A stretch of DNA of 64,000 nucleotides from an uncultured Bacteroidota bacterium (GTDB lineage: Bacteria > Bacteroidota > Bacteroidia > AKYH767-A > JABDAW01): assembly GCA_903844645.1 (NCBI GenBank), contig CAIMUP010000027.1, positions 6,547-70,546 on the forward strand, given 5' to 3'. Shown here in pieces: positions 957 to 59,478 of the stretch. The position numbers were made by a program, and so were the translations under genes. Positions within the stretch are counted from its first letter, which is position 1; each line of letters opens with the position of its first letter. The notes beneath the pieces are model-generated. The model worked only from the letters and a program-made list of their open reading frames with translations. It was not told where the DNA came from and ran no database searches.

Positions 957-1020
957 GCAAACTTTCGTATTTATTCGTTGTAAAGAGGTCTAATTCCTGT
1001 TTGGGGAGGAGTAAAACCTG

Positions 1021-1196
1021 TTTGGATTGCTCCTCCCCAAGTTTGGATTGTTCCTCCCCAAGCTTGGATTGCTTCTCCCCAAGCTTGGATTGTTCCTCCC
1101 CAAGCTTGGATTGTTCCTCCCCAAGCTTGGATTGTTCCTCCCCAAGCTTGGATTGCTCCTCCCCAAGCTTGGATTGCTCCATTCCAAGCTTGGAAT
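1021..1196. repeat. Tandem array of 21-bp units (ttggattgttcctccccaagc), about 8 copies; begins with an 11-bp-stem hairpin (ttggggaggag...ctcctccccaa)
   Basis: Direct reading of 1000-1235. It lies between the convergent ends of the lpxL-like gene and the giant T9SS gene. A degenerate copy follows at 1211-1235. Confidence 0.9.
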
Positions 1197-1339
1197 TGTT
1201 TAAAACCAATTGGTTTTGCTCCTCCCCAAACAGGGAATATTCCAAAAGAAAAAGGTTTTGCCATTCATCCCGAAGGGAAAAATGCAAAACCTTTTTGAAT
1301 AAGATGGATGAAATCTTAACGGGGAATGGTATTTAGGAG

Positions 1340-4300
1340 CTATTCCACGACCACCTTCCGCTGCATCACACCGTCCTCATTCTGCATCAAAACAAGGTAC
1401 AGTCCTTTTGGAATTTCAGACAGATTCAATTCAATTTGGTTGTCGCCAACGACGGAAGTATGGTTTTGATTCATCATAATCCTGCCCATCACATCTATCA
1501 AACGGAGGGTGTAGGCTTGCTCTTTATCTGATGAAAAAACGATCGTCAAATGGTCCTTTGCGGGATTGGGATAAATGTTGAATGTCGCTAAACTCGCAAC
1601 ATCGCCCTCCTCCATTCTTGGTGCAGTCGTAAAAGTTTGCGCTGCACTGAAGCCCGAATTAACGGTTCCGCTGGCATTGCAATTGGCTTGAATTTGCCAA
1701 TCGTAAGCCGTATTATGCGTCAGTTGCGAGAAGGTATAATGGGTATTCGGGCTTATCGTGTGGGTACTCCAAATAGTAGCATTGTGCTTGCTGATTCGGA
1801 TGGTATAACCATAGTAACAAGTCGGCTGAATCCAATTAGCCATAGCCGTAGTTGCCGCGATATTGGTGGTCGCATTCACAGGGAATGTCGGGAAATTGCA
1901 AGCCCCTGGAATAAGAGTCGAAGCCATACCGGTGCAGCCATTCACGCTGGTAACGGTTACAGAATAAGAGCCTCCGGTATTAATAATAATGCCTTGGGAG
2001 GTAGCATTGGTATTCCAAAGATAAGCCGCGAAAACGGGGCTTGCCGTAAGCGAGGCATTACCGCCGCCACAAATATTGGCGAGGTTCGCAGAAATAATAT
2101 TGGGGATAGGAGCCGTAAGCACCGTAACCGATTGGTGTGCCGCAGCCGAACAATTCCCGCCATTAGAAACGGTTACATAGTAGATGCCCGTAGCAGAAAT
2201 AGTGATGGATTGAGTCGTTGCACCATTGCTCCAAAGGTATGCGGAATAAGTATTATTAGTTGATAAAGATGAATTGCCACCAGTGCATGTAGTGGTTGCT
2301 CCAACAATCGCCAAGCCTGTAATAGTAGGCGTTACCGTAATATTAATTTGAGCAGCGGCGGCAGTACAACCATGCGCATTGGTAACCGTAACTCGATATG
2401 GATTTGATGCAACAACGGTGATGGATTGGGTGATTGCTCCATTGCTCCAAAGGTACGATGAATAGGCACCGGCATTCAGCAATACAGAGCCTCCCTGGCA
2501 GAATGTAGTAGGACCATTCGGGATGATGGTAGGAATCGGATTCTGGTAAACAGTAACGGTAGTAGAAGCCGATGCCGAACATCCCTGGCCATTAGAAACT
2601 GTAACAGAATAAGTACCGGAAGCGGAAGCATTGATTGTCGCTGTTGAAGCTCCGTCGCTCCAAGAATAAGCCGTTCCACCCGATGCCGTTAAAGCAACGC
2701 TGCCACCAGCACAGAAGGCAGTGGGACCATTAGGAGTAATAATTGCAGTCAGGTTAGAATAGACCGTAACCGACAAGCAGGTAGTTCCTGAACATCCGTT
2801 CACATCCGTAACCGTAACACAGTAGGGCTGTGTACCGAATGCAGTAATAGTTTCAGCAGAAGAACCATCGTTCCATAAGTAGGAAGCATAACTCCCGGCA
2901 TCTAATGAAACCGAACCACCATCGCAGAAAGTAGTAGGACCATTAGGAGCAATGGATGGTGTAGGCAAAGCATTAATAGTAACATAAGTCGAGGCAACAC
3001 CAGTACAACCATTACCATCAGTTACGGTAACTTGTATAGCACCACCCGTCGCAGTTGTGATTAATTGAATAGTTTCAGAAGTACTCCACAAATAGGAAAT
3101 CCATGAACCAGCATCCAAAGAAACGGGTGTTCCTGCACATGTACTTGTAAGCCCCATAATAGTTGGTATTGGATTTGGATTCACAGCAACCGCAATTGAA
3201 GCCGTTCCGGTGCAGGTGTTAGCATTAGTAACTGTAACGATATAAATGCCACCGATTGTAGTAATGATTGTTTGGGTTGTTGCTCCATTGCTCCAAGAAT
3301 AAGAAATAAATGTTCCTGCATCAAGCATAACAGAGCCACCATCACAAAAGGTAGTGGAACCAATTGAGGTAATTACAGGAGTGGGATTTGGATTAATAGA
3401 AACTGTAATTGAAGCAGTACCGGTGCAGGTGTTCGCATCGGTAACAGTAACGCCGCAAATACCACTGCTCGCAACGGTGATTGTTTGAGTCGTTGCCCCA
3501 TTGCTCCAGGAATAAGAAGTAAAAGTACCAGCATCTAAAGTTACATTGCCACCATCACAAAAGGTAGTGTTTCCATTAGATGTAATAATTGGAGTTGGAG
3601 GGTTGGCACAAGGAGTACAATTTAAACTGAAAGATTCCGAAGCATCAATATCTCCACTTACAACAGTCCAATTAGCAGTTGAATACACAATGTCATCTAC
3701 CTGTATGCAAGAAAGATTAGGGTTATGGCTTGCCCAAAAGTGAGCGGTAGTTATGTTGTGATTATGTCCATTTGCAACATTCAAATTGTGAAGGTCATTA
3801 TAAGGACAAAAGAAATAAATTAATTCAGGATTGTGGCTCACGTCTAAGCTACTTATGTTATTATGATTACATTCCAAGACCGTGAGAGCAGTATTGTTGC
3901 TCACATCAAGGCTATTGATGAAATTGTTGGCAGGAGTAAGTTCAATAAGCGAGGTATTGAGACTCACATCTAAACTCGTCAGGTTATTATATGCACACTG
4001 CAAATAGAGAAGTGCCGTATTGTGGCTAACATCTAAATTATTTAGACTGTTGTCATAACATACCAAATCTGTAAGTGCGATGTTATGGCTTAAATCCAAG
4101 CTGCTTAATACGGTATTGTCGTAACAATACAATGTATTAAGCGCAGGGTTATTTGTAACATTTATGCTGGTAAGCAAATCATTCCAACAATATAAATCCG
4201 TAAGGGCTGTACAGTGGCTCACATCCAAGCTACTTAAAGAATTATTGCCAGAGCAATCCAAATACGTGAGTGCTGTGTTGTGACTCATATCTAAACTAAT

Positions 4301-7300
4301 TAAGTTGTTATAGTTAGAATAAATATTATTGTTACAATAAAGTGTTATAAGTGCAGTGTTGTGGGTAACATCTAAGTTATCTAACATATCATCAGCACAA
4401 TGCAATTCCGCAAGTGATGTATTGTTGCTCACATCTAAGTTGCTAATTTGATTTTGAGAACAATCCAAATATGTAAGGGCTATGTTGTGAGAAATATCAA
4501 AACTATTCAAGTAATTGTTGAAACATATTAATCCGGTAAGTGAGGTGAATGCTTCAATGCCAGTTAAACTAGAAATGAAAAGATGAGAAACATCCATAGT
4601 ACCATGAAATGCCTCCGCCTCACAAAATTGAATCTCTCCATCTCCATTAGTATTAATTGCAGTGTCAGCAAGCAAAGCTGTTTTGAACGCAGCATTGGGG
4701 ATGTTCACAATATCGGAGCAATTACAATTCAAACTAAAATGAGCATTAGCATCTACGTTATCAATCCAATAATTAGTTGAATAATCAACATCATCAACCT
4801 GTACACAGAAAAGGTTAGGATTATTAACGGCATTAAAAAACTCTAAATTGGTATTGTTGCCATTCGCAAGATTCAAACTAGTTAGAGTATTAAAGCTACA
4901 ATCAAAATTATTAAGAAGTGGATTGTGACTGACATCTAACATTGTTAATGAATTATTATAAGTTACTAATGCCTGAAGAGCCGCATTATTACTAACATCT
5001 AAGCTGCTTAACATATTATCATAACAATAAATATAAGTAAGAGCTGTGTTTTGGCTAAAATCTATATTAGTAAGTGAATTGCTGGAACACTCTAAATAAG
5101 TTAGTGCCGTGCAGTTCATCAGGTTTAAACTGTTTAATGAATTATTGGAACAATAGACTGTGTTGAGGGCAATGTTATGGCTGAAATCTAAACTTCCTAT
5201 AGGATTGCTGTAACAATATAAAGTAGCAAGTCCAGTAAAGGCTTCTATTCCAGTAAGGTCTGTAATACCTAAACTTGGTACATAAATATAATCTGCGAAA
5301 GCAGTTGCTTCACATACCTGTATTTCATTATCACCATTAGTGTTGATGGCTGTATTTGCAAGTAAATAGGCTTTAAAGTTAGCATCTGGAATGTTTACTA
5401 TGGGTGCACAAGCAGCACAATTTAAACTAAAGGAAGCAGTGGCATCAATACTTCCATTTCCAACTGTCCAATTAGCAGATGAATAAAAAATATCATCTAC
5501 CGTGATACACGAAAGATTTGGATTAAGGGTTGCATCGAAAAGTGTGATGTTTGTGTTGTTGCCATTGGCTACATTTAAACTATTCAGATTGTTATTGGCA
5601 GTGCTGAAAAGTATAAGTGCGGTGTTGTTAGTAACATCCAAAGTTGTCATTGAATTACCATAACATCTTAAATATTGAAGAGCGGTGTTGTGGCTAACAT
5701 CTAAAGTGGTTAGTATGTTTCTTCCACAATTCAAATCAGTTAAGGCAGTGTTGTGGCTCAAGTCCAAAGACAAAATGAAGTTATCGTAGCAATCCAACAT
5801 CACAATATTTGGAAAAGCTTCGATACCTGTAAGATCAAATATTCCACGGCTGTCAACTTGAATGTCTCCTGCAAAAGCATTGGCTTCGCAAACTTGTATT
5901 TCTCCATCTCCATTCGTATTGATGTCTGTTCGTCCAACTAAGTAGGCTTTAAAAATAGCATCGGGAATATTGACTACGACAATGCAATTGCAATTCAAAC
6001 TAAAAGTTGCTGATGCATCAATATTAAAATTAGAAACCGTCCAATTGGCATTTGCCCAAATAGTATCATCAACTGATATGCAAGATAGAGCAGCATTATT
6101 AATGGCACTAAAAGTAGTCATGTTGGTGTTGTTTCCATTAGCCACAGTCAGGTTAGTAAGTGCATTGTTTGTACATTGCAAATTGGTGAGCGAAGTATTA
6201 TGACTCATGTCTAAATTTGTGATGGAATTGTAGTTGCAATTCAGCGTGGTCAGAGCTGGATTGTTGCTGACATCTATGCTTGTTAGCATGTTATTATAAC
6301 AATTAATAGTAGTCAGAGCAGGATTGTGGCTGACATCTAAACTACTGAAATTATTATGGTCGCAGTACAAATAAACAAGCGCATGGTTATAAGATAAATC
6401 AACAGTGCTAATAGTATTCCCTCCGCACAACAAACCAGTGATATTTGGAAAATTCTGAATACCGGCTAACTGTGCAATACTCAAACCATTCACATCAATT
6501 GTTCCGGTAAAAGCATCGGCTTCACAGACTTGTATTTCGTTGTCGCCATTGGTATTAATAGCAGGATTCGCAAGCAAGGCTGCTTTGAAATTGGCATCAG
6601 GAATGTTTAAGATAGCAGTACAGGCACAATTGAGACTAAAACTTGCCCCTGAATCTATGCTGCCATTACCCACTGTCCAAGTAGTTGTTGCATAAGCTAC
6701 ATCATCCACTTTGATACAGGTAAGATCAGGATTATTACTTGCATCAAAAGCAGAGAAATCTGTATTGTGACCATTGGCAATGTTTAAGGTATTTAATACT
6801 GGGTTACCACTGCAATAAAAATTAGAAAGGGTAGTGTTTACACTAACATCCAAATGGAATATTGAATTATGAGTACAATCGAAGGTTATAAGCGCACTGT
6901 TATGGCTTATATCAATATCGGTAAGGTTGTTATAATCGCAATACAATTTACTAAGTCCCGCATTGTTGCTCACATCTAAAACTCCTAATGAGTTATCGCT
7001 ACAGCCCAAAATATTAAGGGCTGTATTATGACTCACATCTAAAAAAAACAAAGGGTTCGAGTAACAATATAGATAGCCAAGAGCCGAATTGTGACTCACA
7101 TCTAAACCAACAAGACTATTGCCATTGCATTGTAAACCTACGAGATTTGAATTCTGGCTTACATCTAAATGTACAATACTATTATAACTGCAATCCAATG
7201 TTTGCAAACTGGTATTTTGGGTAACATCCAGGCTATTGAAATTATTATGATTACAAACCAATACCGTAAGAGCCGTGTTATGACTAACATCCAAAGTATT

Positions 7301-8473
7301 CAAGCTATTATCATAACAATACAATTCTGTAATTCCAGTAAATGCTTCAATGCCTATCATATCCTGTATTCCGAGTAAAGAAACATTAATTGCCCCATGA
7401 TATGCAGCAGCTTCATAGACTTCTATTTCATTGTTATGGTTTGTATTAATAGTAGTATCGCTCACCAATGCAGCTTTGAAAATAGAATCCTGAAAATAGA
7501 CTATATCTGGAGTGGGACAAAACAGGCTGAAAGATGCTGCATTATCTATATTAACTGAAGCCAGCCAATGGGCAGTTGCCCAGGCTACGTTGTCCACTTG
7601 TATGCAGGTCAGGTAGGGGTTACCATTGGCATAAAAGGTGGAATTTAAGGCGGCATTATTTCCATTGGCTATATTCAAATAAATAACACTATTATTGAAA
7701 CAATCGAAAAAAGTAAGTGCAGAGTTGTGGCTTGCATCTATACTGGATATATAATTATTCCAACAAATGAAATAAGTAAGCGCAGGGTTGTGGCTTAAAT
7801 CTATATCGGTTAATAAATTATTGAAACAGGTAAAATATGTAAGTGTTGGGTTATTACTTACATCTATATGTGTGAGATAATTATAGGTACAGCTAAGGTT
7901 GGACAGATTCAGATTATGGCTGACATCTAAGCTGGTCAGGTGATTTTGATCGCAATCAAGCATAAAAAGTTGGGTGTTATTACTCACATCTAAAGTAGTC
8001 AAGTTATTCTCAGAAATTTCTAAGGAATCTAAAACTGGATTATGACTTATATCTATGCTGGTTAGGTTATTATTGAAGGCATTAATATGAGTAAGAGAGG
8101 TATTGTTGCTAAAGTTTAAGCTGCTTAGACGATTTTCATAGCACCCCAGACGAATAAGTGCAGTATTGTGGCTCAAATCTAAATCATATAGTACATTGGT
8201 ACTACAATCCAGGTTTAATAAATTTATAAAAGCCTCTATACCGGTTAAGTCGTGAATGCCCAAATTCGAGACATTAATTCCATTTATCTCTGTTCCGATA
8301 AATGCTTCTGCCTCCGACACCTGAATTTCTCCATCACCATTCGTGTTAATGTCCAATCTTCCTACCAAATAAGCTTTAAAAGCAGGGTCAGGAATATTCA
8401 CGTTTTGACCAGCAGCATTCATTACCATCAAGAATGCCAGAACAAGAGTTACTGTTGTTAAGATTTGTTTCAT
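1340..8473 (-). CDS. Giant T9SS-secreted surface protein (2377 aa): signal peptide, 6 tandem modules (N-cap 'NIPDxxFKAxL..INTNGDGEIQ' + about 10 22-residue LRR-like repeats 'LDVSHNTALTxLxCxxNxLTSLDVS'), about 10 Cys-containing Ig-like domains, an FN3-like domain, and a Por_Secre_tail C-terminal domain
   Basis: Signal peptide MKQILTTVTLVLAFLMVMNAAGQ. The N-cap motif recurs six times. The Ig-like domains follow the pattern '...TFCxGGSVxLxAG..SYxWSNGATTQTITV...'. The C-terminus 'IYPNPAKDHLTIVF...LSEIPKGLYLVLMQNEDGVMQRKVVVE' matches the T9SS sorting-domain consensus. Confidence 0.85.
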   Translation of the reverse strand: MKQILTTVTLVLAFLMVMNAAGQNVNIPDPAFKAYLVGRLDINTNGDGEIQVSEAEAFIGTEINGINVSNLGIHDLTGIEAFINLLNLDCSTNVLYDLDLSHNTALIRLGCYENRLSSLNFSNNTSLTHINAFNNNLTSIDISHNPVLDSLEISENNLTTLDVSNNTQLFMLDCDQNHLTSLDVSHNLNLSNLSCTYNYLTHIDVSNNPTLTYFTCFNNLLTDIDLSHNPALTYFICWNNYISSIDASHNSALTFFDCFNNSVIYLNIANGNNAALNSTFYANGNPYLTCIQVDNVAWATAHWLASVNIDNAASFSLFCPTPDIVYFQDSIFKAALVSDTTINTNHNNEIEVYEAAAYHGAINVSLLGIQDMIGIEAFTGITELYCYDNSLNTLDVSHNTALTVLVCNHNNFNSLDVTQNTSLQTLDCSYNSIVHLDVSQNSNLVGLQCNGNSLVGLDVSHNSALGYLYCYSNPLFFLDVSHNTALNILGCSDNSLGVLDVSNNAGLSKLYCDYNNLTDIDISHNSALITFDCTHNSIFHLDVSVNTTLSNFYCSGNPVLNTLNIANGHNTDFSAFDASNNPDLTCIKVDDVAYATTTWTVGNGSIDSGASFSLNCACTAILNIPDANFKAALLANPAINTNGDNEIQVCEADAFTGTIDVNGLSIAQLAGIQNFPNITGLLCGGNTISTVDLSYNHALVYLYCDHNNFSSLDVSHNPALTTINCYNNMLTSIDVSNNPALTTLNCNYNSITNLDMSHNTSLTNLQCTNNALTNLTVANGNNTNMTTFSAINNAALSCISVDDTIWANANWTVSNFNIDASATFSLNCNCIVVVNIPDAIFKAYLVGRTDINTNGDGEIQVCEANAFAGDIQVDSRGIFDLTGIEAFPNIVMLDCYDNFILSLDLSHNTALTDLNCGRNILTTLDVSHNTALQYLRCYGNSMTTLDVTNNTALILFSTANNNLNSLNVANGNNTNITLFDATLNPNLSCITVDDIFYSSANWTVGNGSIDATASFSLNCAACAPIVNIPDANFKAYLLANTAINTNGDNEIQVCEATAFADYIYVPSLGITDLTGIEAFTGLATLYCYSNPIGSLDFSHNIALNTVYCSNNSLNSLNLMNCTALTYLECSSNSLTNIDFSQNTALTYIYCYDNMLSSLDVSNNAALQALVTYNNSLTMLDVSHNPLLNNFDCSFNTLTSLNLANGNNTNLEFFNAVNNPNLFCVQVDDVDYSTNYWIDNVDANAHFSLNCNCSDIVNIPNAAFKTALLADTAINTNGDGEIQFCEAEAFHGTMDVSHLFISSLTGIEAFTSLTGLICFNNYLNSFDISHNIALTYLDCSQNQISNLDVSNNTSLAELHCADDMLDNLDVTHNTALITLYCNNNIYSNYNNLISLDMSHNTALTYLDCSGNNSLSSLDVSHCTALTDLYCWNDLLTSINVTNNPALNTLYCYDNTVLSSLDLSHNIALTDLVCYDNSLNNLDVSHNTALLYLQCAYNNLTSLDVSLNTSLIELTPANNFINSLDVSNNTALTVLECNHNNISSLDVSHNPELIYFFCPYNDLHNLNVANGHNHNITTAHFWASHNPNLSCIQVDDIVYSTANWTVVSGDIDASESFSLNCTPCANPPTPIITSNGNTTFCDGGNVTLDAGTFTSYSWSNGATTQTITVASSGICGVTVTDANTCTGTASITVSINPNPTPVITSIGSTTFCDGGSVMLDAGTFISYSWSNGATTQTIITTIGGIYIVTVTNANTCTGTASIAVAVNPNPIPTIMGLTSTCAGTPVSLDAGSWISYLWSTSETIQLITTATGGAIQVTVTDGNGCTGVASTYVTINALPTPSIAPNGPTTFCDGGSVSLDAGSYASYLWNDGSSAETITAFGTQPYCVTVTDVNGCSGTTCLSVTVYSNLTAIITPNGPTAFCAGGSVALTASGGTAYSWSDGASTATINASASGTYSVTVSNGQGCSASASTTVTVYQNPIPTIIPNGPTTFCQGGSVLLNAGAYSSYLWSNGAITQSITVVASNPYRVTVTNAHGCTAAAAQINITVTPTITGLAIVGATTTCTGGNSSLSTNNTYSAYLWSNGATTQSITISATGIYYVTVSNGGNCSAAAHQSVTVLTAPIPNIISANLANICGGGNASLTASPVFAAYLWNTNATSQGIIINTGGSYSVTVTSVNGCTGMASTLIPGACNFPTFPVNATTNIAATTAMANWIQPTCYYGYTIRISKHNATIWSTHTISPNTHYTFSQLTHNTAYDWQIQANCNASGTVNSGFSAAQTFTTAPRMEEGDVASLATFNIYPNPAKDHLTIVFSSDKEQAYTLRLIDVMGRIMMNQNHTSVVGDNQIELNLSEIPKGLYLVLMQNEDGVMQRKVVVE

Positions 8474-8716
8474 GTTATTTATTATTAAAATTGTTTAAAA
8501 GATTCCATATTTATTTGGATTTGGCAAACCTACTAAAACATTCGACACTTCCGCTCGATGCAAAATAGGGTGTCCCCCGATCATCCATCAGCACCTTGTA
8601 ATTTCATTCATTTTTTTTAATTTTAATTGGATTAATATATATTAATTTTACTGTATTCTACTTGAAATCGCAGTGTTTGTAACTCCCTCCATCCCAGAAA
8701 GAGTTATCGCTGGCTT

Positions 8717-8864
8717 GGAAATAGTTATGGCTGCCGTGGAAATAGTTATGGCTGGCGTGGAAATAGTTGTGGCTGCCGTGGAAATAGTTATGGCTGGCGT
8801 GGAAATAGTTATAGCTGGCGTGGAAATAGTTATGGCTGGCGTGGAAATAGTTATCGCCAGCCCA
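8717..8864. repeat. Tandem array of 21-bp units (gaaatagttatggctggcgtg), about 7 copies, in a divergent promoter region
   Basis: Direct reading. It lies between the divergent starts of the 2377-aa gene (8473) and the SBBP gene (9053). The terminal unit carries an inverted variant (gctggc/gccagc). Confidence 0.9.
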
Positions 8865-10744: not shown

Positions 10745-10825
10745 TTTGGCAAAGGAGGCATCTAATATTCCCTCCCAACCACTCCTATTATATAGGCACC
10801 GTTTTGGGGAGGAATGTGAAATAAG
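10745..10825. repeat. Inverted-repeat arm A (~55-bp core ttcctccccaaaacggtgcctatataataggagtggttgggaggg, reverse-complemented here); partner at 23985-24070
   Basis: The reverse complement of 10770-10825 aligns at about 80% with 24000-24060. Confidence 0.75.
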
Positions 10826-10837
10826 TGATTTATAGCG

Positions 10838-11060
10838 TAACCGACTTCTGTTTCGACCTAAACCATGTGCTTTACTACGAAACAGAAGTCTGCTTCGGTC
10901 TAAAGCATGTGGTTTACTGCGAAACAGAAGTCGGCTTCGGTCTAAACCATGTGGTTTACTGCGAAACAGAAGTCGGCTTCGGTCTAAACAACATGGTTTA
11001 CTACGAAACAGAAGTCGGCTTCGGTCTAAACAACGTTGTTTAGACCGAAACAGAACTTCC
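10838..11060. repeat. Tandem array of 42-bp units (gtttactgcgaaacagaagtcggcttcggtctaaaccatgtg), about 5 copies, bounded by inverted partial copies
   Basis: Direct reading. The first partial unit 'gtaaccgacttctgtttcgacctaaacc' and the last 'gtttagaccgaaacagaac' are inverted relative to the internal units. There are no spacers, so it is not a CRISPR array. Confidence 0.9.
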
Positions 11061-11240
11061 TGAACATGCAAAGCACTCGATTTTGATGGAAATTCTTGCC
11101 GATTTTCGCAAAAGTGGCGTTATTTGGAATTTCGGCAAGTTTTCGGATGATTTGAAATAGATGGATTTTCCCCTAAATTCTTGCCGATTTTGAGGAAATC
11201 GTAGGTTTTGATGAAAACGGGAGGAAATCATCCAAAAAAA
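11041..11240. repeat. Inverted-repeat arm B (~190 bp; internal duplication of '...atcggcaagaattt...'); partner at 23440-23620
   Basis: The reverse complement of 11060-11238 aligns at about 85% with 23443-23615. Example: 'atcgtaggttttgatgaaaacgggaggaaatcatcc' against 'ggatgatttcctcccgttttcatcaaaacctacgat'. Confidence 0.85.
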
Positions 11241-11351
11241 TTATATGGGATAAAACCTCCATCGCGTAGCGACTCCAGCATCGCATCCTGAATTAATCAA
11301 AAACCGCTTGCCCCACTTTTTAATACTTTTGCATCCCTAAGAATAACAATT

Positions 11352-14870: not shown

Positions 14871-15138
14871 ATTGTAATACTTCCCTGTGACATTGTAATA
14901 CTTCCCTGTGACATTGTAATACTTCCCTGTGACATTGTAATACTTCCCTGTAACATTGTAATACTTCCCTGTAACATTGTAATACTTCCCTGTCACATTG
15001 TAGTACTTCCCTGTCACATTGTAGTACTTCCCTGTGACATTGTAATACTTCCCTGTGACATTGTAGTACTTCCCTGTGACATTGTAATACTTCCCTGTGA
15101 CATTGTAGTACTTCCCTGTGACATTGTAGTACTTCCCC
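14871..15138. repeat. Tandem array of 21-bp units (cattgtaatacttccctgtga), about 13 copies
   Basis: Direct reading. Intergenic, between the ABC ATPase stop and the next TPR gene. Confidence 0.9.
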
Positions 15139-16363: not shown

Positions 16364-17410
16364 TTAATTGTTTATATAAATAGCAAATTCATCCCTCGCG
16401 ATGAACTGTCCAATAGGCTTATTCGTGATAGAGGACAAGCCGAAATCGTGCATCACTTCTTGGAATTGATTAACCGTATCGGGATTCACAGAAACCAGCA
16501 AGCCACCAGAGGTTTGCGGGTCGCAAAGCGTGATAAAAGACATGCCTTCAATGCCACTTACTTTCTTTTCATAACTGTTCCAATTGCGATAGACATTATC
16601 GGGGAAACAAAACTGGTTGGTGTAGTATTCAATACCGTTAATCAAGGGAATATCCTGGTAATTCAATGCTGCCGAAAGGTCACTCCCATCAGCCATCTCG
16701 ATAAGATGACCGAGTAATCCGAATCCCGTAACATCTGTCATGGCAGACACTCCCTGCATCTTGCTTAATTCGACACCGACCTTGTTCAATTGGCACATTA
16801 AATCGAGAGCTGTTTTATAATCTTCATCCCGAACGATGCCACGCTTGAGTGCAGCAGTAATAATGCCGATTCCCAGGGGCTTGGTAAGGTACAATTGATT
16901 ACCGATATGGGCGGTGTTGTTCTTCTTTAAGTGAGCGGTTTCGATGATGCCATTCACCGCCAAGCCGAATATGGGTTCCGTGGTGGAAATACTGTGCCCG
17001 CCTGCCAATGGAATGCCTGCTTCTTCGCAGATAGCGCGACTGCCTTGCAATACTTGGTGCGCCAGTTCGGGGGTTAGTTTATCCATGTTCCAACCAAGGA
17101 TGGCGATGGCTAAAATCGGCTTGCCACCCATCGCATAAACGTCGTTGATGGCATTAACAGCGGCTATTCTCCCAAAATCAAAAGCATCATCCACGATAGG
17201 CGTGAAAAAGTCGGTCGTCGCGATGAGTGCCGAGCCATTACCCATGTCGAAAACGGCAGCATCATCGCGAGAATGATTCCCTACCAACAATTCTTTGAAG
17301 GCGTTTCTGTTCTCGCCGTCCTGCAAAATGATATCTAACTGCGAAGCCGGTATTTTGCAGCCACAGCCCGAGCCTTTGCTGTATTGCGTTAATCTGATTT
17401 GTTCGTTCAT
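16364..17410 (-). CDS. selD: Selenide, water dikinase (selenophosphate synthetase) SelD, Cys-type
   Basis: N-terminal 'LTQYSKGSGCGCKIPASQLDIIL' (SelD GxGCK motif with Cys, not Sec). AIR-synthase-related fold motifs 'DAAV...TTDFFTP..DD' and 'AMTDVTGFGLLGH'. Confidence 0.85.
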   Translation of the reverse strand: MNEQIRLTQYSKGSGCGCKIPASQLDIILQDGENRNAFKELLVGNHSRDDAAVFDMGNGSALIATTDFFTPIVDDAFDFGRIAAVNAINDVYAMGGKPILAIAILGWNMDKLTPELAHQVLQGSRAICEEAGIPLAGGHSISTTEPIFGLAVNGIIETAHLKKNNTAHIGNQLYLTKPLGIGIITAALKRGIVRDEDYKTALDLMCQLNKVGVELSKMQGVSAMTDVTGFGLLGHLIEMADGSDLSAALNYQDIPLINGIEYYTNQFCFPDNVYRNWNSYEKKVSGIEGMSFITLCDPQTSGGLLVSVNPDTVNQFQEVMHDFGLSSITNKPIGQFIARDEFAIYINN

Positions 17411-17460
17411 GTTGCAAAACTAAGAAAGAAAAGCGTTATCGCGTTTCGAGGATGCAAACA

Positions 17461-18033
17461 TCACTGAATGGTAGCTGCGATATGCGTGTCAGTGTAGGCG
17501 GCATACTTGCTCAATTCTGTTGCTATGTGGGCATTCCAGAGCTGTTGGTTGGCGGTATTGATATGATGATTCGTTTCTTTGTCGTACCGGTTCTCTTCCT
17601 TCTCCCACGCCTTGGAATTACTCTTATAAAGGTCGTTTAATTTCGCTTTTACGTTCCTTTTATTAAACGATGCATCGCGCAAAGCCTTCCTTAATTTACG
17701 GGCATACAACTCTGCAAGATCGAAATGCCCTTGTTCGTGTTTCAATCCTGATTCATCGCGACCGATGGGCTTCACCCACGACTGTTTTCTATAAAATATC
17801 GCCTTTACTTCGATGGTAATCGCGGCTCCTTGGTAGTGATAGTTGTACGACATGCCCGAACTCGTAACAGCCCCGTAGTTACTGGCGTTGTTAGGCGTTC
17901 CCTGGAAGTCATCCCACGATAATTGATGGGCAGTCCAAGGTATTTCATCGCCTTCTTTTGCTCTGTTATTCCCGAAAGAAAACAGTACAAAGGCGATACA
18001 CAGCAGGGCGGTTATAGAACTTGTTTTTTTCAT
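17461..18033 (-). CDS. DUF922-family protein (predicted Zn-metallopeptidase-like, HExxH)
   Basis: Signal peptide MKKTSSITALLCIAFVLF, then the 'KHEQGHFD' motif characteristic of DUF922. The ORF track extends the reading frame to 18309 through the repeat array; the true start is most likely the ATG at 18033. Confidence 0.65.
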   Translation of the reverse strand: MKKTSSITALLCIAFVLFSFGNNRAKEGDEIPWTAHQLSWDDFQGTPNNASNYGAVTSSGMSYNYHYQGAAITIEVKAIFYRKQSWVKPIGRDESGLKHEQGHFDLAELYARKLRKALRDASFNKRNVKAKLNDLYKSNSKAWEKEENRYDKETNHHINTANQQLWNAHIATELSKYAAYTDTHIAATIQ

Positions 18034-18099
18034 CAAATTAAGACTATACAAAAACGATTCCAAAGTTTTTTTATTGGATAAAAGCGACCTCGCGTTCGC

Positions 18100-18243
18100 C
18101 AATCGCGTACATGCCGTTACAATTCGCGTACATTGACTCGGAATTAGCGTACATGCCGTTAGAATTAGCGTACATTGACTCGGAATTAGCGTACATTTCA
18201 TGACATAAACACGTGTTTTTGTCATGAAATGTACGCTAATTTT
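18100..18243. repeat. Tandem 21/42-bp array (gcgtacatgccgttacaattc / gcgtacattgactcggaatta) ending in a ~58-bp near-perfect palindrome
   Basis: The palindrome 'aattagcgtacatttcatgacataaacacg|tgtttttgtcatgaaatgtacgctaatt' spans 18185-18242. It lies between the DUF922 start and the nnr stop. Confidence 0.9.
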
Positions 18244-18256
18244 AGCCTCAATTATG

Positions 18257-19792
18257 CTATCGGAGGAGGGAAAATCCGTTACTGATGCCTTCAATAATAT
18301 CTCTGGCAATCATGAATTCTTCTCCGAGTTTTTCTTTAGCAATATCGCCTGCAAGCCCATGCAAAAAGACCCCGATCATACAAGTCGCGGCAGCGGTATA
18401 ACCCTGTGCCATCAAGCCTGTCAGCATTCCGGTCAGCACATCGCCACTACCCGCCGTCGCCATCCCGGGATTGCCCGTAGAATTGAAAAATAATTGCCCA
18501 TCAGGGAAAGAAATACAAGTATGCGCCCCCTTCAGAATGACATAACATTGGTTTTTGATAGAGAACGCTCGCTGCATTTCCATCCGATTGAAATTATCGG
18601 ACGATTTCCCCACCAATCGCTCGAATTCCTTCGGATGTGGCGTAAAAACACATCCCTTCGGGAGGAAAGCGAGCCACGTTTTGTTCTCCGCAAGGATATT
18701 TATCGCATCGGCATCGAGGATTAAGGGGAGCGTGGTTTGCTGAATGAGCACTTTGAGGAAGTTTTGGGTAGATGAATGCATGCCGATGCCCGGTCCGATG
18801 CCGATTGCGGTATAATTATCGGGCTTAATGGGAGTAGAAATCATGTTTAATTCAGCATCGCACACCACCATCGCCTCCGGAATACTTGTTTGCAGAATGT
18901 CGTATCCGCATTTCGGAATGTTAGTAGTCAATAATCCCGCACCGACTCGCAAAGCCGCCATAGAAGCGAGAACTGCGGCACCTATCTTACCATAGCTGCC
19001 GGCAATAAGTAGCGCATGACCATAATTTCCCTTATGAGAGAAAGGGCTTCGCCGATGAATCATCGGTTTGATGCTGTCTTCGGTAAGGTAATGGAACATT
19101 GTGGATGTATTTTGGAGAAATTCCTCCGAAAGATGGATGTTTATCACCTCCCAATTCCCGATATATTCAGCATTTTCAGGCATCATAAAAGCAATCCTCG
19201 GCACTTGGAACGTGAGCGTACTATTTGCTTTAATAATCGGACTGTTTCTGGTAATGGAAGTACCATCGCCATGCAAGCCGGAGGGCATATCCACCGCTAT
19301 CACACGGGCATTGCCATTGTTAATTCTATTAATGACCTCGGCAGCCAGCCCTTCGACAGGTTTGTTCAGCCCCGAGCCAAAAATAGCATCAATAATAAGG
19401 TCGTCAGGATGAATTTCGGGGATGTCATTCTCGGAATTAATATCAACGATTCTATTTTTCTTCACCTCCACCATCTTAGAATGAAAAAAAAGGAAATCGT
19501 CGGAGCAATGCTCACTGTATCTCACAATATAAGTTTCGACTTTGAAGTTCCGCCTGCTCAATTCTCGAGCTATCACCAAGCCATCGCCACCATTATTCCC
19601 CGTTCCGCAAAAGATTTTGATAGTATGGTCATCAGCAATACTACTTCTGAAATGCCTATCCTCGATTATCTTAATAATTTCTTCAGTACACGCCTTGGCA
19701 GCCCGCTCCATGAGGCGAAAAGATTCGATAGGTTCATGGATTATCGTGTAAGCATCCCACTCTTTGATCTGTTGTTGAGAAAATAGCTTCAT
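18257..19792 (-). CDS. nnr: Bifunctional NAD(P)H-hydrate repair enzyme Nnr (NAD(P)HX epimerase / ADP-dependent dehydratase)
   Basis: N-terminal YjeF-N domain ('QQIKEWDAYTI...CGTGNNGGDGLV'). C-terminal YjeF-C/carbohydrate-kinase domain ('LILDADAIN...GSGDVLTG'). Confidence 0.85.
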   Translation of the reverse strand: MKLFSQQQIKEWDAYTIIHEPIESFRLMERAAKACTEEIIKIIEDRHFRSSIADDHTIKIFCGTGNNGGDGLVIARELSRRNFKVETYIVRYSEHCSDDFLFFHSKMVEVKKNRIVDINSENDIPEIHPDDLIIDAIFGSGLNKPVEGLAAEVINRINNGNARVIAVDMPSGLHGDGTSITRNSPIIKANSTLTFQVPRIAFMMPENAEYIGNWEVINIHLSEEFLQNTSTMFHYLTEDSIKPMIHRRSPFSHKGNYGHALLIAGSYGKIGAAVLASMAALRVGAGLLTTNIPKCGYDILQTSIPEAMVVCDAELNMISTPIKPDNYTAIGIGPGIGMHSSTQNFLKVLIQQTTLPLILDADAINILAENKTWLAFLPKGCVFTPHPKEFERLVGKSSDNFNRMEMQRAFSIKNQCYVILKGAHTCISFPDGQLFFNSTGNPGMATAGSGDVLTGMLTGLMAQGYTAAATCMIGVFLHGLAGDIAKEKLGEEFMIARDIIEGISNGFSLLR

Positions 19793-23351: not shown

Positions 23352-23439
23352 ATGTACGATTATTATGGGTAATGATACTATCGAAAATTTTATTCTTTAC
23401 TAAATCTTTCATTCCCCGCGGCTTTTATCCCGAATATTT

Positions 23440-23620
23440 TTTTAGGATGATTTCCTCCCGTTTTCATCAAAACCTACGATTTCCTTAAAATCGGCAAGAA
23501 TTTCGGGGGAAATTCATCTCCTTTAAATCATCCAAAAACAGGTCAGAATTCCAAATAACGCCACTTTTCCGAAATCCGGCAAGAATTTAGGGTAAAATCG
23601 AAGTGGTTTGCGTTTCATTC
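23440..23620. repeat. Inverted-repeat arm B' (partner of 11041-11240)
   Basis: See arm B. It carries the internal duplication 'aatcggcaagaatttcgggg / atccggcaagaatttaggg'. Confidence 0.85.
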
Positions 23621-23632
23621 TGCTCGCCTTCG

Positions 23633-23828
23633 GTATATATCACATGATATATAGCAATCGGGAGTTCGCCATCGCAATATATCATATGATATATTGCGAT
23701 CCCGAGCATAATAAAAGTGCATATCATATGATATATTGCAATCCCGAGCATAATGAAAGTGCATATCACATGATATATTGCAATCCCGAGCATAATGAAA
23801 GTGCATATCATATGATATATTGCGATCC
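23633..23828. repeat. Tandem array of 42-bp units (atatcatatgatatattgcaatcccgagcataatgaaagtgc), about 4.5 copies; each unit holds the palindrome atatcatatgatatat
   Basis: Direct reading. The first unit is partly inverted (gcaatcgggag against ctcccgat...). Confidence 0.9.
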
Positions 23829-23984
23829 CTAACTCCCGAACGTAGTAAACCATCTGATTTTGCCTTTTGGGGAATTCCGGAAATGTGCATACCATTTCGT
23901 TTAGACCGATGCCGACGAGCAGATTTTTGCATCTCATCTGATTTTTCCCAATCCCGACGAGTGGGTTTTGATAAATTTTCAAGT

Positions 23985-24070
23985 TTATTCCATTCCCCGA
24001 AAAGATACCTATATAATAGGAGTGGTTGGGAGGGAAATCGGGATGGCGGTGGCGCGGAATGGTATCATCC
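23985..24070. repeat. Inverted-repeat arm A' (partner of 10745-10825); overlaps the putative paaZ promoter
   Basis: 'gatacctatataataggagtggttgggaggg' against the reverse complement of the left arm, 'ggtgcctatataataggagtggttgggaggg'. Confidence 0.75.
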
Positions 24071-27850: not shown

Positions 27851-28069
27851 TGCATGTAATCTCGCTTTTGTCGCGAGTAAAATTGCTTTTATTGCATGTA
27901 ATATCCTTTTTGTTGGATGTAATTTCATTCCCGCTGCATGAAACGTCATTCCGGTTGCATGAAATGTCATTCCGTCTGCATGTAATCTCCTTTTTGTTGC
28001 ATGTAATTTCATTCCCGTTGCATGAAATTTCATTCCCGTTGAGTGAAATTTCATTTTTCACTCAACGGG
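27851..28069. repeat. Tandem array of 21-bp units (tgcatgtaatttcattcccgt), about 10 copies, ending in a 13-bp-stem hairpin (ccgttgagtgaaa...tttcactcaacgg)
   Basis: Direct reading. The hairpin at 28034-28069 lies about 60 bp upstream of the ATG at 28131. Confidence 0.9.
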
Positions 28070-33754: not shown

Positions 33755-33819
33755 GGCAATGTTGCCATTTAATCAAACTATCCTTTATAACAATAACGCT
33801 GTTCAGGCATTGAATAACG

Positions 33820-34138
33820 TAAGTCGGGGACTGACTTACATCATTCAATCCCCGAACAACGAAGTTCGGGGACTGAATGATGTACTTCGGGGACTGAATG
33901 ATGTACTTCGGGGACAGAATGATGTACTTCGGGGACTGAATGATGTAAATCGGGGACAGAATGATGTACTTCGGGGACTGAATGATGTAAATCGGGGACT
34001 GAATGATGTACTTCGGGGACCGAATGATGTACTTCGGGGACTGAATGATGTACTTCGGGGACTGAATGATGTACTTCGGAGACCGAATGATGTACTTCGG
34101 GGACTGAATGATGTACTTCGGGGACCGAATGATGTAAT
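33820..34138. repeat. Tandem array of 21-bp units (ggactgaatgatgtacttcgg), about 13 copies, preceded by two short hairpins (gtaagtc-ggggact-gacttac; ccccgaac-aacgaa-gttcgggg)
   Basis: Direct reading. It fills the gap between the 1589-aa gene stop and the next T9SS gene start. Confidence 0.9.
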
Positions 34139-37392: not shown

Positions 37393-37517
37393 GCAAAACT
37401 ATAAAAAAGCCCGCATGTATGAGATTTCTTGGTCTAATAAAATTTCCTTCTCCAAGGATTCTACACTTAGAAACCCGCCGAATCCTTGAAAAACCCAATT
37501 TTGCCCCCCCTCACTCC

Positions 37518-37783
37518 CAACTTTGGTCGTCTCGGGTTTAACTTTAGCCTCCACGGGTTTGACTTTGGTCGTCTCGGGTTTAACTTTAGCCTCCACGGGT
37601 TTGACTTTGGTTGTCTCGGGTTTAACTTTAGCCCCCAAGTCTCCAACTTTAGCCCCCTCGGGTTTGACTTTAACGCCCACGAGTCCAACTTTAGCCCCCT
37701 CCGGTCCGACTTTAAGACCCACTGGTTTAACTTTAATCGCCTCCATTTTAACTTTACTCCCCCTGCCTCCAACTTTAATATTC
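37518..37783. repeat. Tandem array of two interleaved 21-bp units (gactttggtcgtctcgggttt / aactttagcctccacgggttt), about 12 copies
   Basis: Direct reading. Lies upstream of the DUF2971 gene start. Confidence 0.9.
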
Positions 37784-37810
37784 TCAAGTCAGATAAATAT
37801 TGGCAAGTAA

Positions 37811-38085
37811 ATTCCACAACACTCATGTAAATCTGGAACACTCATGTAAATTCCACAACACTCATGTAAAACCCAAGAACACTCATGTAAGCATCAAGAA
37901 CAGTCATGTAACTACCAACAACACTCATGTAAGCACCAACAACACTCATGTAAAACCCAAGAACACTCGTGTAACTCCCAACAACACTCATGTAAGTACC
38001 AAGAACATTCGTGTAACTACCAAGAACACTCATGTAAGCACTAAGAACACTCATGTAATTACCAAAAACACTCGTTACAAAACCC
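37811..38085. repeat. Tandem array of 21-bp units (aacactcatgtaaaacccaag), about 13 copies; only about 25 bp from the preceding array
   Basis: Direct reading. Two unrelated arrays sit back-to-back between the DUF2971 gene and the fadD-like gene. Confidence 0.9.
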
Positions 38086-44766: not shown

Positions 44767-45018
44767 TAGTATTTGCATGTCAGAACCACTATTTACTGGT
44801 CAGCATCAAATATTTGGTAGGCAGCATTAAGTATTTACTGGTCAGCATCGTATATTTGGTTGGCAGGAACAAGTATTTAGTAGGCAGCAACGAGTATTTG
44901 AAGGTCAGCCTCAAGTATTGACAGGTCAGCATCGTCTATTTGAAGGTTAGCACCAAGTATTTGGTAGGCAGCATCAAGTATTTAGTCGTCAGCACCATGT
45001 ATTTGAATGTCAGCACCA
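44767..45018. repeat. Tandem array of 21-bp units (agtatttggtaggcagcatca), about 12 copies
   Basis: Direct reading. Lies between the start of the 43678..44706 gene and the stop of the FAH-family gene. Confidence 0.9.
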
Positions 45019-45025
45019 ACAAAAA

Positions 45026-52227: not shown

Positions 52228-52332
52228 TTTCTTAAATTTTAATTGTTAATTTATGGTTATTACTATTTATTTTATTACTAATTCACTGATAATGAAGATC
52301 ATAAAATGTCTTTTACCTATCTCATCCATCTT

Positions 52333-52538
52333 GTTATTTGGTAAATAACAACTGTTATTTACCAAATAACAACTGTTTTCTGCCAAATAACAACTGTTAT
52401 TTTCCAAGAAACAACTGTTATTTTTCCGGCAACAGTTGTTATTTTCCAAAAAACGACTGTTATTTTTCAGCCAACAGTTGTTATTTTCTAAGAAACAACT
52501 GTTATTTTAGAGATAACACCTGTTGTTTTCCAAAAAAC
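52333..52538. repeat. Tandem array of 21-bp units (ccaaataacaactgttatttt), about 9 copies; each unit holds the palindrome aacaactgtt, and some copies are inverted
   Basis: Direct reading. Lies upstream of the 51589..52227 gene start. Confidence 0.9.
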
Positions 52539-52745
52539 AATCCCTCCAAACCCGTCTCTCTTTTTTCCAACCTGTTAAAGAACCTCTACTTTTTTCTGTG
52601 GGATTTTTTACCCTCCTTCTCTTCGTATAATTTTTCTTCGGAAGGGCAGTAGAAAGATTGTCATTTCAATTTCCTACTCAACTCTGAAAGTTATCGGCGG
52701 CAAATATAGAAAAGTTTTCGGGAATGGAATGGGAGAGGGAAAGAT

Positions 52746-59317: not shown

Positions 59318-59478
59318 GTACAATGTTGCCAACATTGTACTTCTTTTCATTAACATCGTTCCACCTTTCATTGACATCGTTCCTTTTGTCATTAACATCG
59401 TTCCACTTGTCAATAACATCGTCCTAAATTCCATTAACTTCGTCCTACTTTTCATTAACTTCGTTCCACAATTTAATA
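59318..59478. repeat. Tandem array of 21-bp units (cattaacatcgttccacttgt), about 7 copies, beginning with an 11-bp-arm palindrome (gtacaatgttg c caacattgtac)
   Basis: Direct reading. Lies upstream of the 58620..59282 gene start. Confidence 0.9.

What the first reader, a model, noticed from the sequence alone, without database searches (positions are those of the whole stretch)
18185..18242. Arrays end in long perfect or near-perfect palindromes (this one ~58 bp)
Array 5 ends in the palindrome 'aattagcgtacatttcatgacataaacacg|tgtttttgtcatgaaatgtacgctaatt'. Other arrays have similar ends:
- Array 7 ends in 'ccgttgagtgaaa-tttcatttt-tcactcaacgg' (28034-28069).
- Array 13 begins with 'gtacaatgttg-c-caacattgtac' (59318-59340).
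- Array 1 begins with 'ttggggaggag...ctcctccccaa'.
- Array 8 is preceded by two hairpins.

In each case the hairpin arms are built from the local repeat unit. So the arrays are capped by an inverted copy of their own unit. This resembles iteron/cruciform geometry or the footprint of a hairpin-resolving replication or recombination process. It is not what simple slippage produces.
Basis: seen in the sequence. Interest (0 to 1): 0.6.

Follow-up and report, generated by a model that had tools for sequence, protein, structure and literature searches.

The report
In an uncultured Bacteroidota genome whose long intergenic regions are filled with unrelated 21-bp tandem repeats, over half of the arrays carry a reverse-complement copy of their own unit; this looks like the footprint of replication template-switch errors, not of a dedicated hairpin-processing system.

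Summary
The palindrome lies at 18184-18241, one base off the stated coordinates. It has 29+29 nt, one mismatch and no loop; as single-stranded DNA it folds at -25.6 kcal/mol (z = -11). The four other examples cited are also present.

Formal tests support the general claim. Nine of 32 array flanks carry an inverted copy of their own unit, against 1 of 960 in cross-array controls. All three further arrays in the 10 kb beyond the window also carry one.

"Capped ends" is too tidy, though. Five of 16 arrays in this organism have no inverted copy. Some inverted copies sit inside an array or at both ends. A third of all units are themselves palindromic.

The inverted copies usually overwrite one unit slot without breaking the 21-nt register. 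They also include multi-base changes that perfect quasi-palindromes, an in-place spacer inversion, and one whole array mirrored unit by unit. These are signatures of short-range template switching during replication.

Their position relative to genes is inconsistent. They lack T-tracts, and canonical terminators sit beside several of them. The window encodes no Rep protein, transposase or telomere resolvase. Iteron, terminator and hairpin-resolution readings are therefore not supported.

The more surprising feature is the lineage-wide system of strictly 21-bp arrays. Its cause remains unexplained.

The parts
18184..18241 (.). 58-bp near-perfect palindrome (29+29 nt, one mismatch, no loop) at the right end of array 5. 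It lies 15 nt from the yjeF-like gene's stop codon (18257-18259).
   Evidence: (I12), (-25.6 kcal/mol, z -11.1)
18097..18201 (.). Array 5: period 21, with a 42-nt superperiod. Each unit has a conserved 13-nt core (AATTAGCGTACAT) and an alternating 8-nt variable part. It lies upstream of the DUF922 gene, whose likely true start is the ATG at 18033.
1001..1040 (.). Array 1 left cap: TTGGGGAGGAG / CTCCTCCCCAA, 11 bp, loop 18. The left arm sits in the unit slot before the array.
1020..1229 (.). Array 1: period 21, between convergent genes. The unit junctions form the palindrome CCAAGCTTGG.
10843..10890 (.). Array 3 left cap: an inverted half-unit GACTTCTGTTTCG paired with CGAAACAGAAGTC, 13 bp, loop 22.
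11020..11049 (.). Array 3 right cap: a 30-bp perfect palindrome. It is the last unit's quasi-palindrome made perfect by multi-base changes (ACTGCG to AGACCG, CCATGTGG to CAACGTTG).
   Evidence: (I24)
10858..11055 (.). Array 3: 42-nt unit. It lies inside one copy (10768-11255) of a dispersed MITE-like element.
23672..23699 (.). Array 6 left cap: 28-bp perfect palindrome TCGCAATATATCAT|ATGATATATTGCGA. It was made by overwriting 12-14 nt of a unit slot in register.
   Evidence: (I23)
23679..23829 (.). Array 6: 42-nt unit. It lies inside the second, inverted copy (23423-24036) of the MITE-like element. Degenerate units of the array-3 type persist at 23835-23980.
28035..28069 (.). Array 7 right cap: CCCGTTGAGTGAAA / TTTCACTCAACGGG, 14 bp perfect, loop 7. 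The slot at 28046 begins as a direct unit and continues as the inverted copy.
27851..28058 (.). Array 7: period 21. Its units contain the palindrome ATGAAATTTCAT.
33837..33884 (.). Array 8 left cap: an inverted full unit (20 of 21), loop 6. Two degenerate direct units at 33801-33842 lie beyond it in the same register, so the inverted copy is internal.
33865..34136 (.). Array 8: 13 units of period 21.
59318..59340 (.). The right arm is a degenerate in-register unit.
59343..59469 (.). Array 12: period 21.
8834..8862 (.). Array 2 right end: a weak 8-bp inverted copy, GGCTGGCG / CGCCAGCC, loop 13. This is borderline and not above the null.
52332..52540 (.). Array 11: the unit is itself a palindrome (GTTATTTGG.TAAATAAC), so the array is both direct and inverted. 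There is no separate cap.
14871..15137 (.). Array 4: 12.7 near-identical units with no inverted copy. This is a counter-example.
37517..38073 (.). Arrays 9a (37517-37790) and 9b (37807-38073): no inverted copy of their own units. These are counter-examples.
44790..45019 (.). Array 10: no inverted copy. This is a counter-example.

Best explanation
The palindromes are reverse-complement copies of the neighbouring repeat unit. They were written into 21-bp minisatellite arrays by short-range template switching during DNA replication or repair. In this process the polymerase briefly copies the nascent or complementary strand and then returns.

In a tandem array the return is easy, because every unit offers microhomology. 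The result is one unit slot, or part of one, overwritten in inverted orientation with no change of length. Repeated events perfect existing quasi-palindromes, invert spacers, and occasionally mirror a whole array.

The 58-bp palindrome at 18184-18241 is the largest such copy. It comprises the 13-nt core of array 5 plus 16 nt of adjacent sequence, duplicated in inverted orientation.

Shown here: the geometry, the statistics, the register preservation and the multi-base perfecting changes. Inferred: the mechanism, and the idea that the hairpins have no dedicated function. Once present they can still form hairpins or cruciforms. They may incidentally stall forks, promote unit gain and loss, or stabilise the 3' end of the yjeF transcript. 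The origin of the strict 21-bp period is not explained by this.
For: 1. Specificity. Inverted copies match the array's own unit: 9 of 32 flanks against 1 of 960 cross-array controls. With the whole array region scanned, 12 of 23 arrays reach score 11, against a null 99.9th percentile of 11.5.

2. Length-neutral, in-register overwrites.
- The A7 slot at 28046 is direct AAATTTCATT followed by inverted TTTCACTCAACGGG.
- In A8, direct units at 33801 (76% identity) and 33822 (67%) continue beyond the inverted unit in the same register.
- A6 slots 23625 and 23667, B1 slot 12638 in L008, and C2 slot 3 in L014 behave likewise.

3. Multi-base changes that perfect a quasi-palindrome in the last A3 unit.

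4. In-place inversion of the segment between arms in B3, L008 20538-20600. Arm homogenisation and spacer inversion are the described outcomes of template switching (PMC8794818 abstract; PMC8604942 abstract, seen).

5. A six-unit array faces its own mirror image, variable parts included. The inner 53 nt are perfect and identity decays outward.

6. Arms are 97.5% complementary, whereas the same segment is only 80.6% identical to neighbouring direct units. The copy was therefore templated locally.

7. Dyad symmetry is pervasive: 8 of 24 units are self-complementary, against 4.7% of shuffles, p = 8e-6.

8. No consistent side or distance relative to gene starts and ends. Canonical T-tract terminators sit next to several arrays. 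No cognate enzyme genes are present.

9. Arrays are not conserved at orthologous positions in relatives, while the trait itself persists.
Against: - No ancestral or derived sequence pair was available.
- For array 5 itself the inner 16 nt of each arm are not array-derived. A pre-existing hairpin that later seeded the array fits equally well.
- The arm-versus-neighbour comparison is biased, because arms were chosen as the best-pairing stretches.
- Near-perfect stems could also be maintained by selection. Two diverged copies of the MITE-like element keep a perfected palindrome at the homologous end despite complete turnover of unit sequence. That could mean function.
- Conserved cores with clustered variable positions inside units hint at constraint.
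- Template switching does not explain why every array has period 21.
Confidence: 0.5

Rival explanations
1. Hairpin first. Pre-existing intergenic hairpins, such as terminators, mRNA 3' stabilisers or protein-binding palindromes, were the seeds. One arm plus adjacent bases was then amplified by slippage into a 21-bp array, so the cap is the ancestor and not a derivative.
For: In array 5 only the outer 13 nt of the 29-nt arm are shared with the units. The inner part is unique, and the palindrome lies 15 nt after the yjeF stop codon. A relative with 67% YjeF identity (L007) also has a long but unrelated hairpin directly after yjeF. Hairpins are known to promote slippage (general knowledge).
Against: In A7, A8, A6, B1 and C2 the inverted copy sits in a unit slot, with direct-unit sequence on both sides or in the same slot. 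The array therefore existed first. B2 mirrors already-diversified units. Caps are found at either end and in divergent promoter regions where no terminator is expected.
Confidence: 0.2
2. Transcript-level function. The hairpins act as terminators or 3'-end stabilisers, in the manner of REP elements, and the palindrome at 18184-18241 serves the yjeF mRNA.
For: Stable stems. Five or six of 12 caps lie within about 140 nt downstream of a stop codon.
Against: The consensus scan calls no terminator at 17400-18700. The stems are AT-rich and lack T-tracts, whereas this genome has canonical T-tract terminators, several of them right beside arrays: 1249-1296, 51523-51569, and L008 12563-12594, 17080-17117 and 20664-20700. 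Other caps lie just upstream of start codons or between divergent genes (A6, A7, A12, C2).
Confidence: 0.12
3. Protein-binding architecture like iterons. Direct repeats phased at two helical turns bind monomers, and the inverted copy binds a dimer to nucleate or limit the complex.
For: The strict 21-bp period. A conserved core with a variable spacer inside units in 8 of 18 arrays. Dyad symmetry. Architecture kept despite sequence turnover in the two MITE-like copies.
Against: The units of 19 arrays tested share no motif. With about one array per 5 kb this would need hundreds of different specific binders. There is no Rep or other dedicated DNA-binding gene next to the arrays. Arrays are not conserved at orthologous sites.
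Confidence: 0.1
4. Ends or internal structure of mobile elements, that is MITE terminal inverted repeats or transposase hairpin substrates.
For: Arrays 3 and 6 lie in two inverted copies of a roughly 500-600-nt dispersed element. Its flanks are 86-91% identical and it has short TIR-like ends (ATTCCCTCCC...GGGAGGAAAT). The motif TCCCTCCNAAC also abuts arrays 11 and 9a. BrickBuilt of P. gingivalis is a MITE with an internal 23-nt minisatellite (PMC4596501).
Against: The caps are copies of the local unit, not of a shared terminal sequence. Most arrays show no shared flanks. No transposase is encoded in the window. The element has no match in the plasmid collection or in JGI metagenomes, and the array 5 region has none in the phage collection.
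Confidence: 0.05
5. Assembly or library artefact, for example chimeric fold-back reads or de Bruijn-graph loops (21 is also a common k-mer size).
For: Highly homogeneous arrays are unstable in assembly: a 100-N gap in array 4 of L002, and fewer units in arrays 1 and 2 of L011.
Against: Array 5 and its palindrome are identical in five assemblies made from different samples and by different assemblers. Arrays contain diverged units that no graph loop would invent. Arrays and caps recur in L008, L009 and L014.
Confidence: 0.02

Closest known systems
Template-switch (quasi-palindrome) mutations in replication
   Same: Both create reverse-complement copies of adjacent sequence, perfect existing imperfect stems through several simultaneous base changes, and invert spacers, all without changing length (PMC8794818; PMC7202029; PMC8604942 abstract). 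All three signatures are seen here.
   Different: Known cases are scattered single events. Here they are concentrated on a genome-wide population of 21-bp minisatellites and affect more than half of them, in one case copying a whole six-unit array.
BrickBuilt MITE of Porphyromonas gingivalis (a minisatellite inside a MITE; PMC4596501)
   Same: Same phylum (Bacteroidota). Intergenic, spacer-less tandem repeat of about 21-23 nt, flanked by a leader and tail with small inverted-repeat ends. Arrays 3 and 6 sit in such a dispersed element.
   Different: BrickBuilt is one 23-nt sequence repeated at 19 loci. Here each array has its own unit, the period is strictly 21, most arrays have no shared flanks, and the inverted copies are of the local unit.
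Iterons with inverted half-repeats in plasmid and phage origins (own knowledge)
   Same: Direct repeats spaced about two helical turns apart, plus an inverted copy nearby.
   Different: Iterons share one sequence, belong to one replicon, and sit beside their rep gene and an AT-rich unwinding element. None of that is found here.
REP/BIME clusters of enterobacteria (own knowledge)
   Same: Intergenic, hairpin-forming, arranged in direct and inverted order, and often located after stop codons.
   Different: REPs are one conserved family per genome, linked to a RAYT transposase. Here the units are unrelated between loci and no RAYT gene was seen.
Tandem repeats with hairpin-forming units in animal mitochondrial control regions, the 'illegitimate elongation' model (own knowledge)
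   Same: Secondary structure within or beside repeat units is thought to drive misalignment and changes in copy number.
   Different: That is a different replicon and mechanism (D-loop strand competition). It has no fixed 21-bp period and no inverted terminal units as a class.

Membership tests
Intrinsic (rho-independent) terminator | GC-rich stem of about 5-20 bp and a short loop, followed by a T-tract | tested here: not met
   No terminator-like site in 17400-18700. The stem is 29 bp, about 34% GC, and is followed by CCGAG on the yjeF strand. Canonical T-tract terminators exist elsewhere in the same genome.
Intrinsic (rho-independent) terminator | Located just downstream of a gene's 3' end, in the sense orientation | tested here: inconclusive
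   Met for array 5 (15 nt after the stop), A1 and A8. Not met for A6, A7 and A12, which lie upstream of start codons or between divergent genes.
Iteron-type replication origin | One repeat sequence recognised by a Rep initiator encoded nearby | tested here: not met
   No shared k-mer among 19 units after correction for multiple testing. No rep gene among the window genes.
REP/BIME | A single conserved palindromic unit dispersed in many copies across the genome | tested here: not met
   Units are unrelated between arrays. The null of other arrays' units against each flank gives 1 of 960.
CRISPR array | Repeats separated by unique spacers of similar length, with a leader and cas genes | tested here: not met
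   The total period is 21 nt with no spacers. Rfam gives no CRISPR direct-repeat hit. A Cas6-like gene lies about 9 kb beyond the left edge on a longer contig but could not be examined.
MITE with internal minisatellite (BrickBuilt-like) | Conserved leader and tail with terminal inverted repeats, in several copies per genome | tested here: inconclusive
   Met for arrays 3 and 6 only: two copies with flanks 86-91% identical and TIR-like ends. Array 5 and most others show no shared flanks. A genome-wide copy count was not possible (one search found nothing).
Hairpin-telomere / protelomerase target site | A long perfect palindrome next to a telomere-resolvase gene on a linear replicon or prophage | tested here: not met
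   No such gene in the window. The context is housekeeping chromosome. There are many palindromes of differing sequence and loop size. The array 5 region has no similarity to phage records.
Template-switch mutation product (a process, not a family) | The reverse-complement copy is adjacent to its template, length-neutral, and consists of multi-base patches that improve pairing | tested here: met
   In-register overwrites, a perfected quasi-palindrome and a spacer inversion. The arms match each other better than they match neighbouring direct units.
Template-switch mutation product (a process, not a family) | Ancestral and derived states that show the event | not testable with these tools
   All available assemblies of this organism are identical at the caps. 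Relatives at 62-67% protein identity lack the orthologous arrays.

The most novel reading that the evidence does not exclude
The 21-bp arrays and their dyad-symmetric caps are not mutational debris. They would be the cis-elements of a lineage-specific, structure-based system: hairpin or cruciform junctions nucleate a sequence-independent protein or replication-coupled process that measures two helical turns. That process would generate and maintain unrelated 21-bp arrays in essentially every long intergenic region, about 4% of this window.
Probability: 0.12. Interest if true: 0.85.

Novelty: new variant of a known kind. Interest (0 to 1): 0.55.

Why it matters
If the reading is right, this lineage is a natural laboratory for template-switch mutagenesis. 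It holds dozens of independent, datable events on a uniform substrate, showing how perfect hairpins arise de novo and how they interact with minisatellite turnover.

There are also practical consequences. The arrays and palindromes break assemblies. They inflate gene calls: the DUF922 gene is called 64 codons too long through array 5, and small 'hypothetical proteins' are called on other arrays. They are potential fragile or cruciform sites.

The larger open question is why every array in this lineage has a period of exactly 21 bp. The caps give one concrete handle on the process that makes the arrays.

Tried and rejected
1. Polar growth. I tested whether units are homogeneous next to the cap and decay away from it. 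This holds for A1, A7 and A12 but is reversed in A8 and B3, so I dropped it.
2. A motif shared by all units, such as GTAC or ATGTAC. The best p-values (0.004-0.02) do not survive 136-2045 tests.
3. A claim that array 4 is six units longer in another sample. I retracted it: the difference is a 100-N scaffold gap.
4. A general 21-nt duplication bias across the genome. There is no excess of 21-nt-spaced repeats outside the array-bearing intergenic regions.
5. Finding the genome or close relatives in the GTDB species representatives. Only one relative at 44% identity turned up, and it has no arrays.
6. Finding more copies of the MITE-like element in JGI metagenomes with a 26-mer. This gave 0 hits.
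7. Similarity to plasmids or phages. None was found.
8. Rfam. The only hit is an unrelated DUF805b RNA.
9. Literature on genome-wide 21-bp bacterial arrays. Nothing was found.
10. Coding potential of the arrays (21 nt = 7 codons). Several frames are open at once, and the DUF922 extension ends at an internal Met followed by a signal peptide. I rejected this.
11. Strain variation at array 5. A variant-strain contig (L012) is identical there.

Full report
**Context.** The window is ordinary chromosome of an uncultured Bacteroidota bacterium. It carries T9SS-sorted proteins and housekeeping genes, with no transposase, rep or recombinase genes. The exact YjeF-like protein (18257-19792, minus strand) occurs on contigs from several metagenome assemblies. 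The nearest GTDB species representative is only 44% identical.

Tandem Repeats Finder reports 13 intergenic arrays, all with period 21, 42 or 63. By my ORF map, each of the 12 intergenic regions longer than about 220 nt contains at least one array, and none of the shorter ones does. Arrays make up about 4% of the window. Their units are unrelated in sequence.

**The observation.** The palindrome is at 18184-18241, one base off the stated coordinates. It has 29+29 nt, one mismatch and no loop. As single-stranded DNA it folds at -25.6 kcal/mol, z = -11. Only the outer 13 nt of each arm, AATTAGCGTACAT, which is the conserved core of the array-5 unit, are repeat-derived. The inner 16 nt are unique. 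It lies 15 nt beyond the yjeF stop codon. Array 5 lies upstream of a DUF922 gene.

The last is built from a degenerate unit only.

**Is it more than chance?** Three tests say yes.
- I scored the best ungapped stem (+1 match, -2 mismatch, loop at most 40) in windows of about 100 nt. Ten of 26 array boundaries reach 11 or more, against 3 of 555 tiles elsewhere in the window.
- I compared each 70-nt flank with the reverse complement of its own consensus unit, using the units of all other arrays as the null. Nine of 32 flanks reach 11 or more, against 1 of 960.
- Scanning each whole array region, 12 of 23 arrays from this organism and its relatives reach 11 or more. The null 99.9th percentile is 11.5.

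Two perfect caps, A7 and A12, are missed by the consensus test because they pair with a variant terminal unit.

A contig from another sample extends 10 kb past the right edge of the window (L008). It holds three more arrays, and all three have inverted units:
- A two-unit array followed by an inverted unit (L008 12613-12667).
- A 42-nt-unit array ending in a perfect 17-bp inverted repeat with a 21-nt loop (L008 20584-20638).
- A six-unit array facing its own six-unit mirror image (L008 17275-17535). The variable parts of the units are mirrored too. The inner 53 nt are perfect and identity decays outward, to 87% overall.

A paralogue-bearing contig from the same sample set (L014) adds one array with an inverted unit in its third slot, one with hairpin-containing units and one with neither.

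Relatives with 62-67% YjeF identity also have 21-bp arrays, with internal palindromes or inverted copies in some (L005, L007). So does a further contig found through a paralogue search (L016). Relatives at 54% and 44% have none in about 21 kb each.

**Where 'capped ends' is too simple.**
- Five of the 16 arrays in this organism have no significant inverted copy.
- One array is palindromic within the unit.
- A3 has inverted copies at both ends.
- In A8 and in C2 of L014, direct units continue beyond the inverted one.

Dyad symmetry is broader than the termini. Eight of 24 consensus units are self-complementary at score 10 or more, against 4.7% of shuffled units (p = 8e-6).

**What the anatomy says about mechanism.** Writing each locus in the 21-nt register of its array shows that inverted copies occupy unit slots without disturbing the register.
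- The A7 slot at 28046 starts as a direct unit (AAATTTCATT) and continues as the inverted copy (TTTCACTCAACGGG).
- In A8, degenerate direct units at 33801 and 33822 (76% and 67% identity to the consensus) lie beyond the inverted unit, exactly in phase.
- In A6, 12-14 nt of two successive slots are replaced.
- The last unit of A3 differs from its neighbours by clustered substitutions (ACTGCG to AGACCG, CCATGTGG to CAACGTTG). These turn the unit's quasi-palindrome into a perfect 30-bp palindrome.
- In B3, a half-unit between two arms is inverted in place.

Reverse-complement copying of adjacent sequence, multi-base perfecting of stems and spacer inversion, all length-neutral, are the described products of replication-associated template switching (PMC8794818; PMC7202029; PMC8604942 abstract, seen).

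The arms are 97.5% complementary, while the same segment is only 80.6% identical to neighbouring direct units. The copies were therefore templated locally, and are either young or continually re-copied. This comparison is biased by how the arms were chosen.

**Against the functional readings.**
- The caps have no consistent side or distance relative to genes. Some follow stop codons (A1, A5, A8). Others lie just upstream of start codons or between divergent genes (A6, A7, A12, C2). Others lie between convergent genes (B1-B3).
- They lack T-tracts, and no terminator is called at array 5. The genome does have canonical T-tract terminators, several directly beside arrays.
- Iteron or hairpin-telomere readings lack their defining partner genes and the required shared sequence.
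- Arrays are not conserved at orthologous positions. After yjeF, L005 has a plain spacer and L007 has an unrelated hairpin made of 7-nt repeats.

**What remains open.**
- For array 5 itself, a pre-existing hairpin that seeded the array cannot be excluded.
- Two diverged copies of a MITE-like element (10768-11255 and 23423-24036, inverted) have 86-91% identical flanks but completely different 42-nt array units. Both nonetheless keep a perfected palindrome at the homologous end.
- Variable positions cluster within units in 8 of 18 arrays. Both this and the MITE observation could reflect constraint.
- Nothing here explains the strict 21-bp period. It is not a general duplication bias. The arrays are not a k-mer artefact, since they are identical across different assemblers.
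- I found no paper describing such arrays. The nearest described object is the BrickBuilt MITE minisatellite of P. gingivalis (PMC4596501).

**Verdict.** The iteron and hairpin-resolution analogies are not supported. The best-supported mechanism is short-range template switching acting on an unusual, lineage-wide population of 21-bp minisatellites (confidence about 0.5).

Noticed in passing
window 10768-11255 and 23423-24036 (inverted): Two copies of a roughly 500-600-nt dispersed MITE-like element. The flanks are 86-91% identical, with TIR-like ends (ATTCCCTCCC...GGGAGGAAAT). Their internal 42-nt arrays have unrelated sequences. The second copy keeps degenerate units of the first copy's type beside its new array.
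   Followed up: partly
window 10769, 24025(-), 52541, 37511: The motif TCCCTCCNAAC (10 matches at up to one mismatch, against 2.9 expected) occurs at the MITE-like ends. It also directly abuts array 11 (right end) and array 9a (left end). It may be a shared boundary motif.
   Followed up: partly
all arrays, e.g. window 18097-18201, 37849-38075; L008 17275-17400: Within units, variable positions are clustered: a conserved 9-13-nt core plus a variable 4-10-nt segment. The lag-1 autocorrelation of entropy has p<0.05 in 8 of 18 arrays. This points to constraint or patchy homogenisation.
   Followed up: partly
window 17461-18309 (-); L002 11568-12332: Gene callers extend the DUF922 gene 64 codons through array 5 and into the palindrome (254 aa). 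The internal Met at 18033 is followed by a signal peptide, so 190 aa is the likelier product. Small 'hypothetical' ORFs of 80-140 aa are likewise called on other arrays.
   Followed up: yes
window 1020-1229 and 8697-8854 versus L011: Another assembly has two fewer units in array 1 and one fewer in array 2. L002 has a 100-N scaffold gap inside array 4. Copy number is either polymorphic or not reliably assembled.
   Followed up: partly
window 58551-58583 (-): Rfam DUF805b RNA motif (42.4 bits, gathering score 35.6) upstream of the 1580-aa T9SS protein gene. It is the only Rfam hit in the window.
   Followed up: no
about 9 kb left of the window on a 31-kb contig (no DNA available): A stand-alone Cas6-like gene (PF01881, 273 aa) lies near the window. 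It is of interest because Cas6 enzymes recognise repeat hairpins, but it could not be examined.
   Followed up: no
L014 2273-2370 and 14862-14960: A GC-rich dispersed repeat of about 100 nt (CATAGCCCCGATAGTAGCGGCAGCCCGCTGC...GCGGCTACAGCGGATAGCGGGACTGG) occurs twice on one contig. It may be a structured RNA or another small mobile element.
   Followed up: no
L007 2495-2579; window 38076-38110; L008 17853-17870: Short 7-nt repeats of the AAGTTTA/TAAACCT type occur near gene 3' ends. In L007 they form a 34-nt-arm hairpin directly after the yjeF stop codon.
   Followed up: no
window 1340-8473 (-): The 2377-aa LRR/T9SS protein gene has a strong 63-nt (21-codon) periodicity. This is coding LRR repeat structure and is unrelated to the intergenic 21-bp arrays, despite the shared number.
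   Followed up: no
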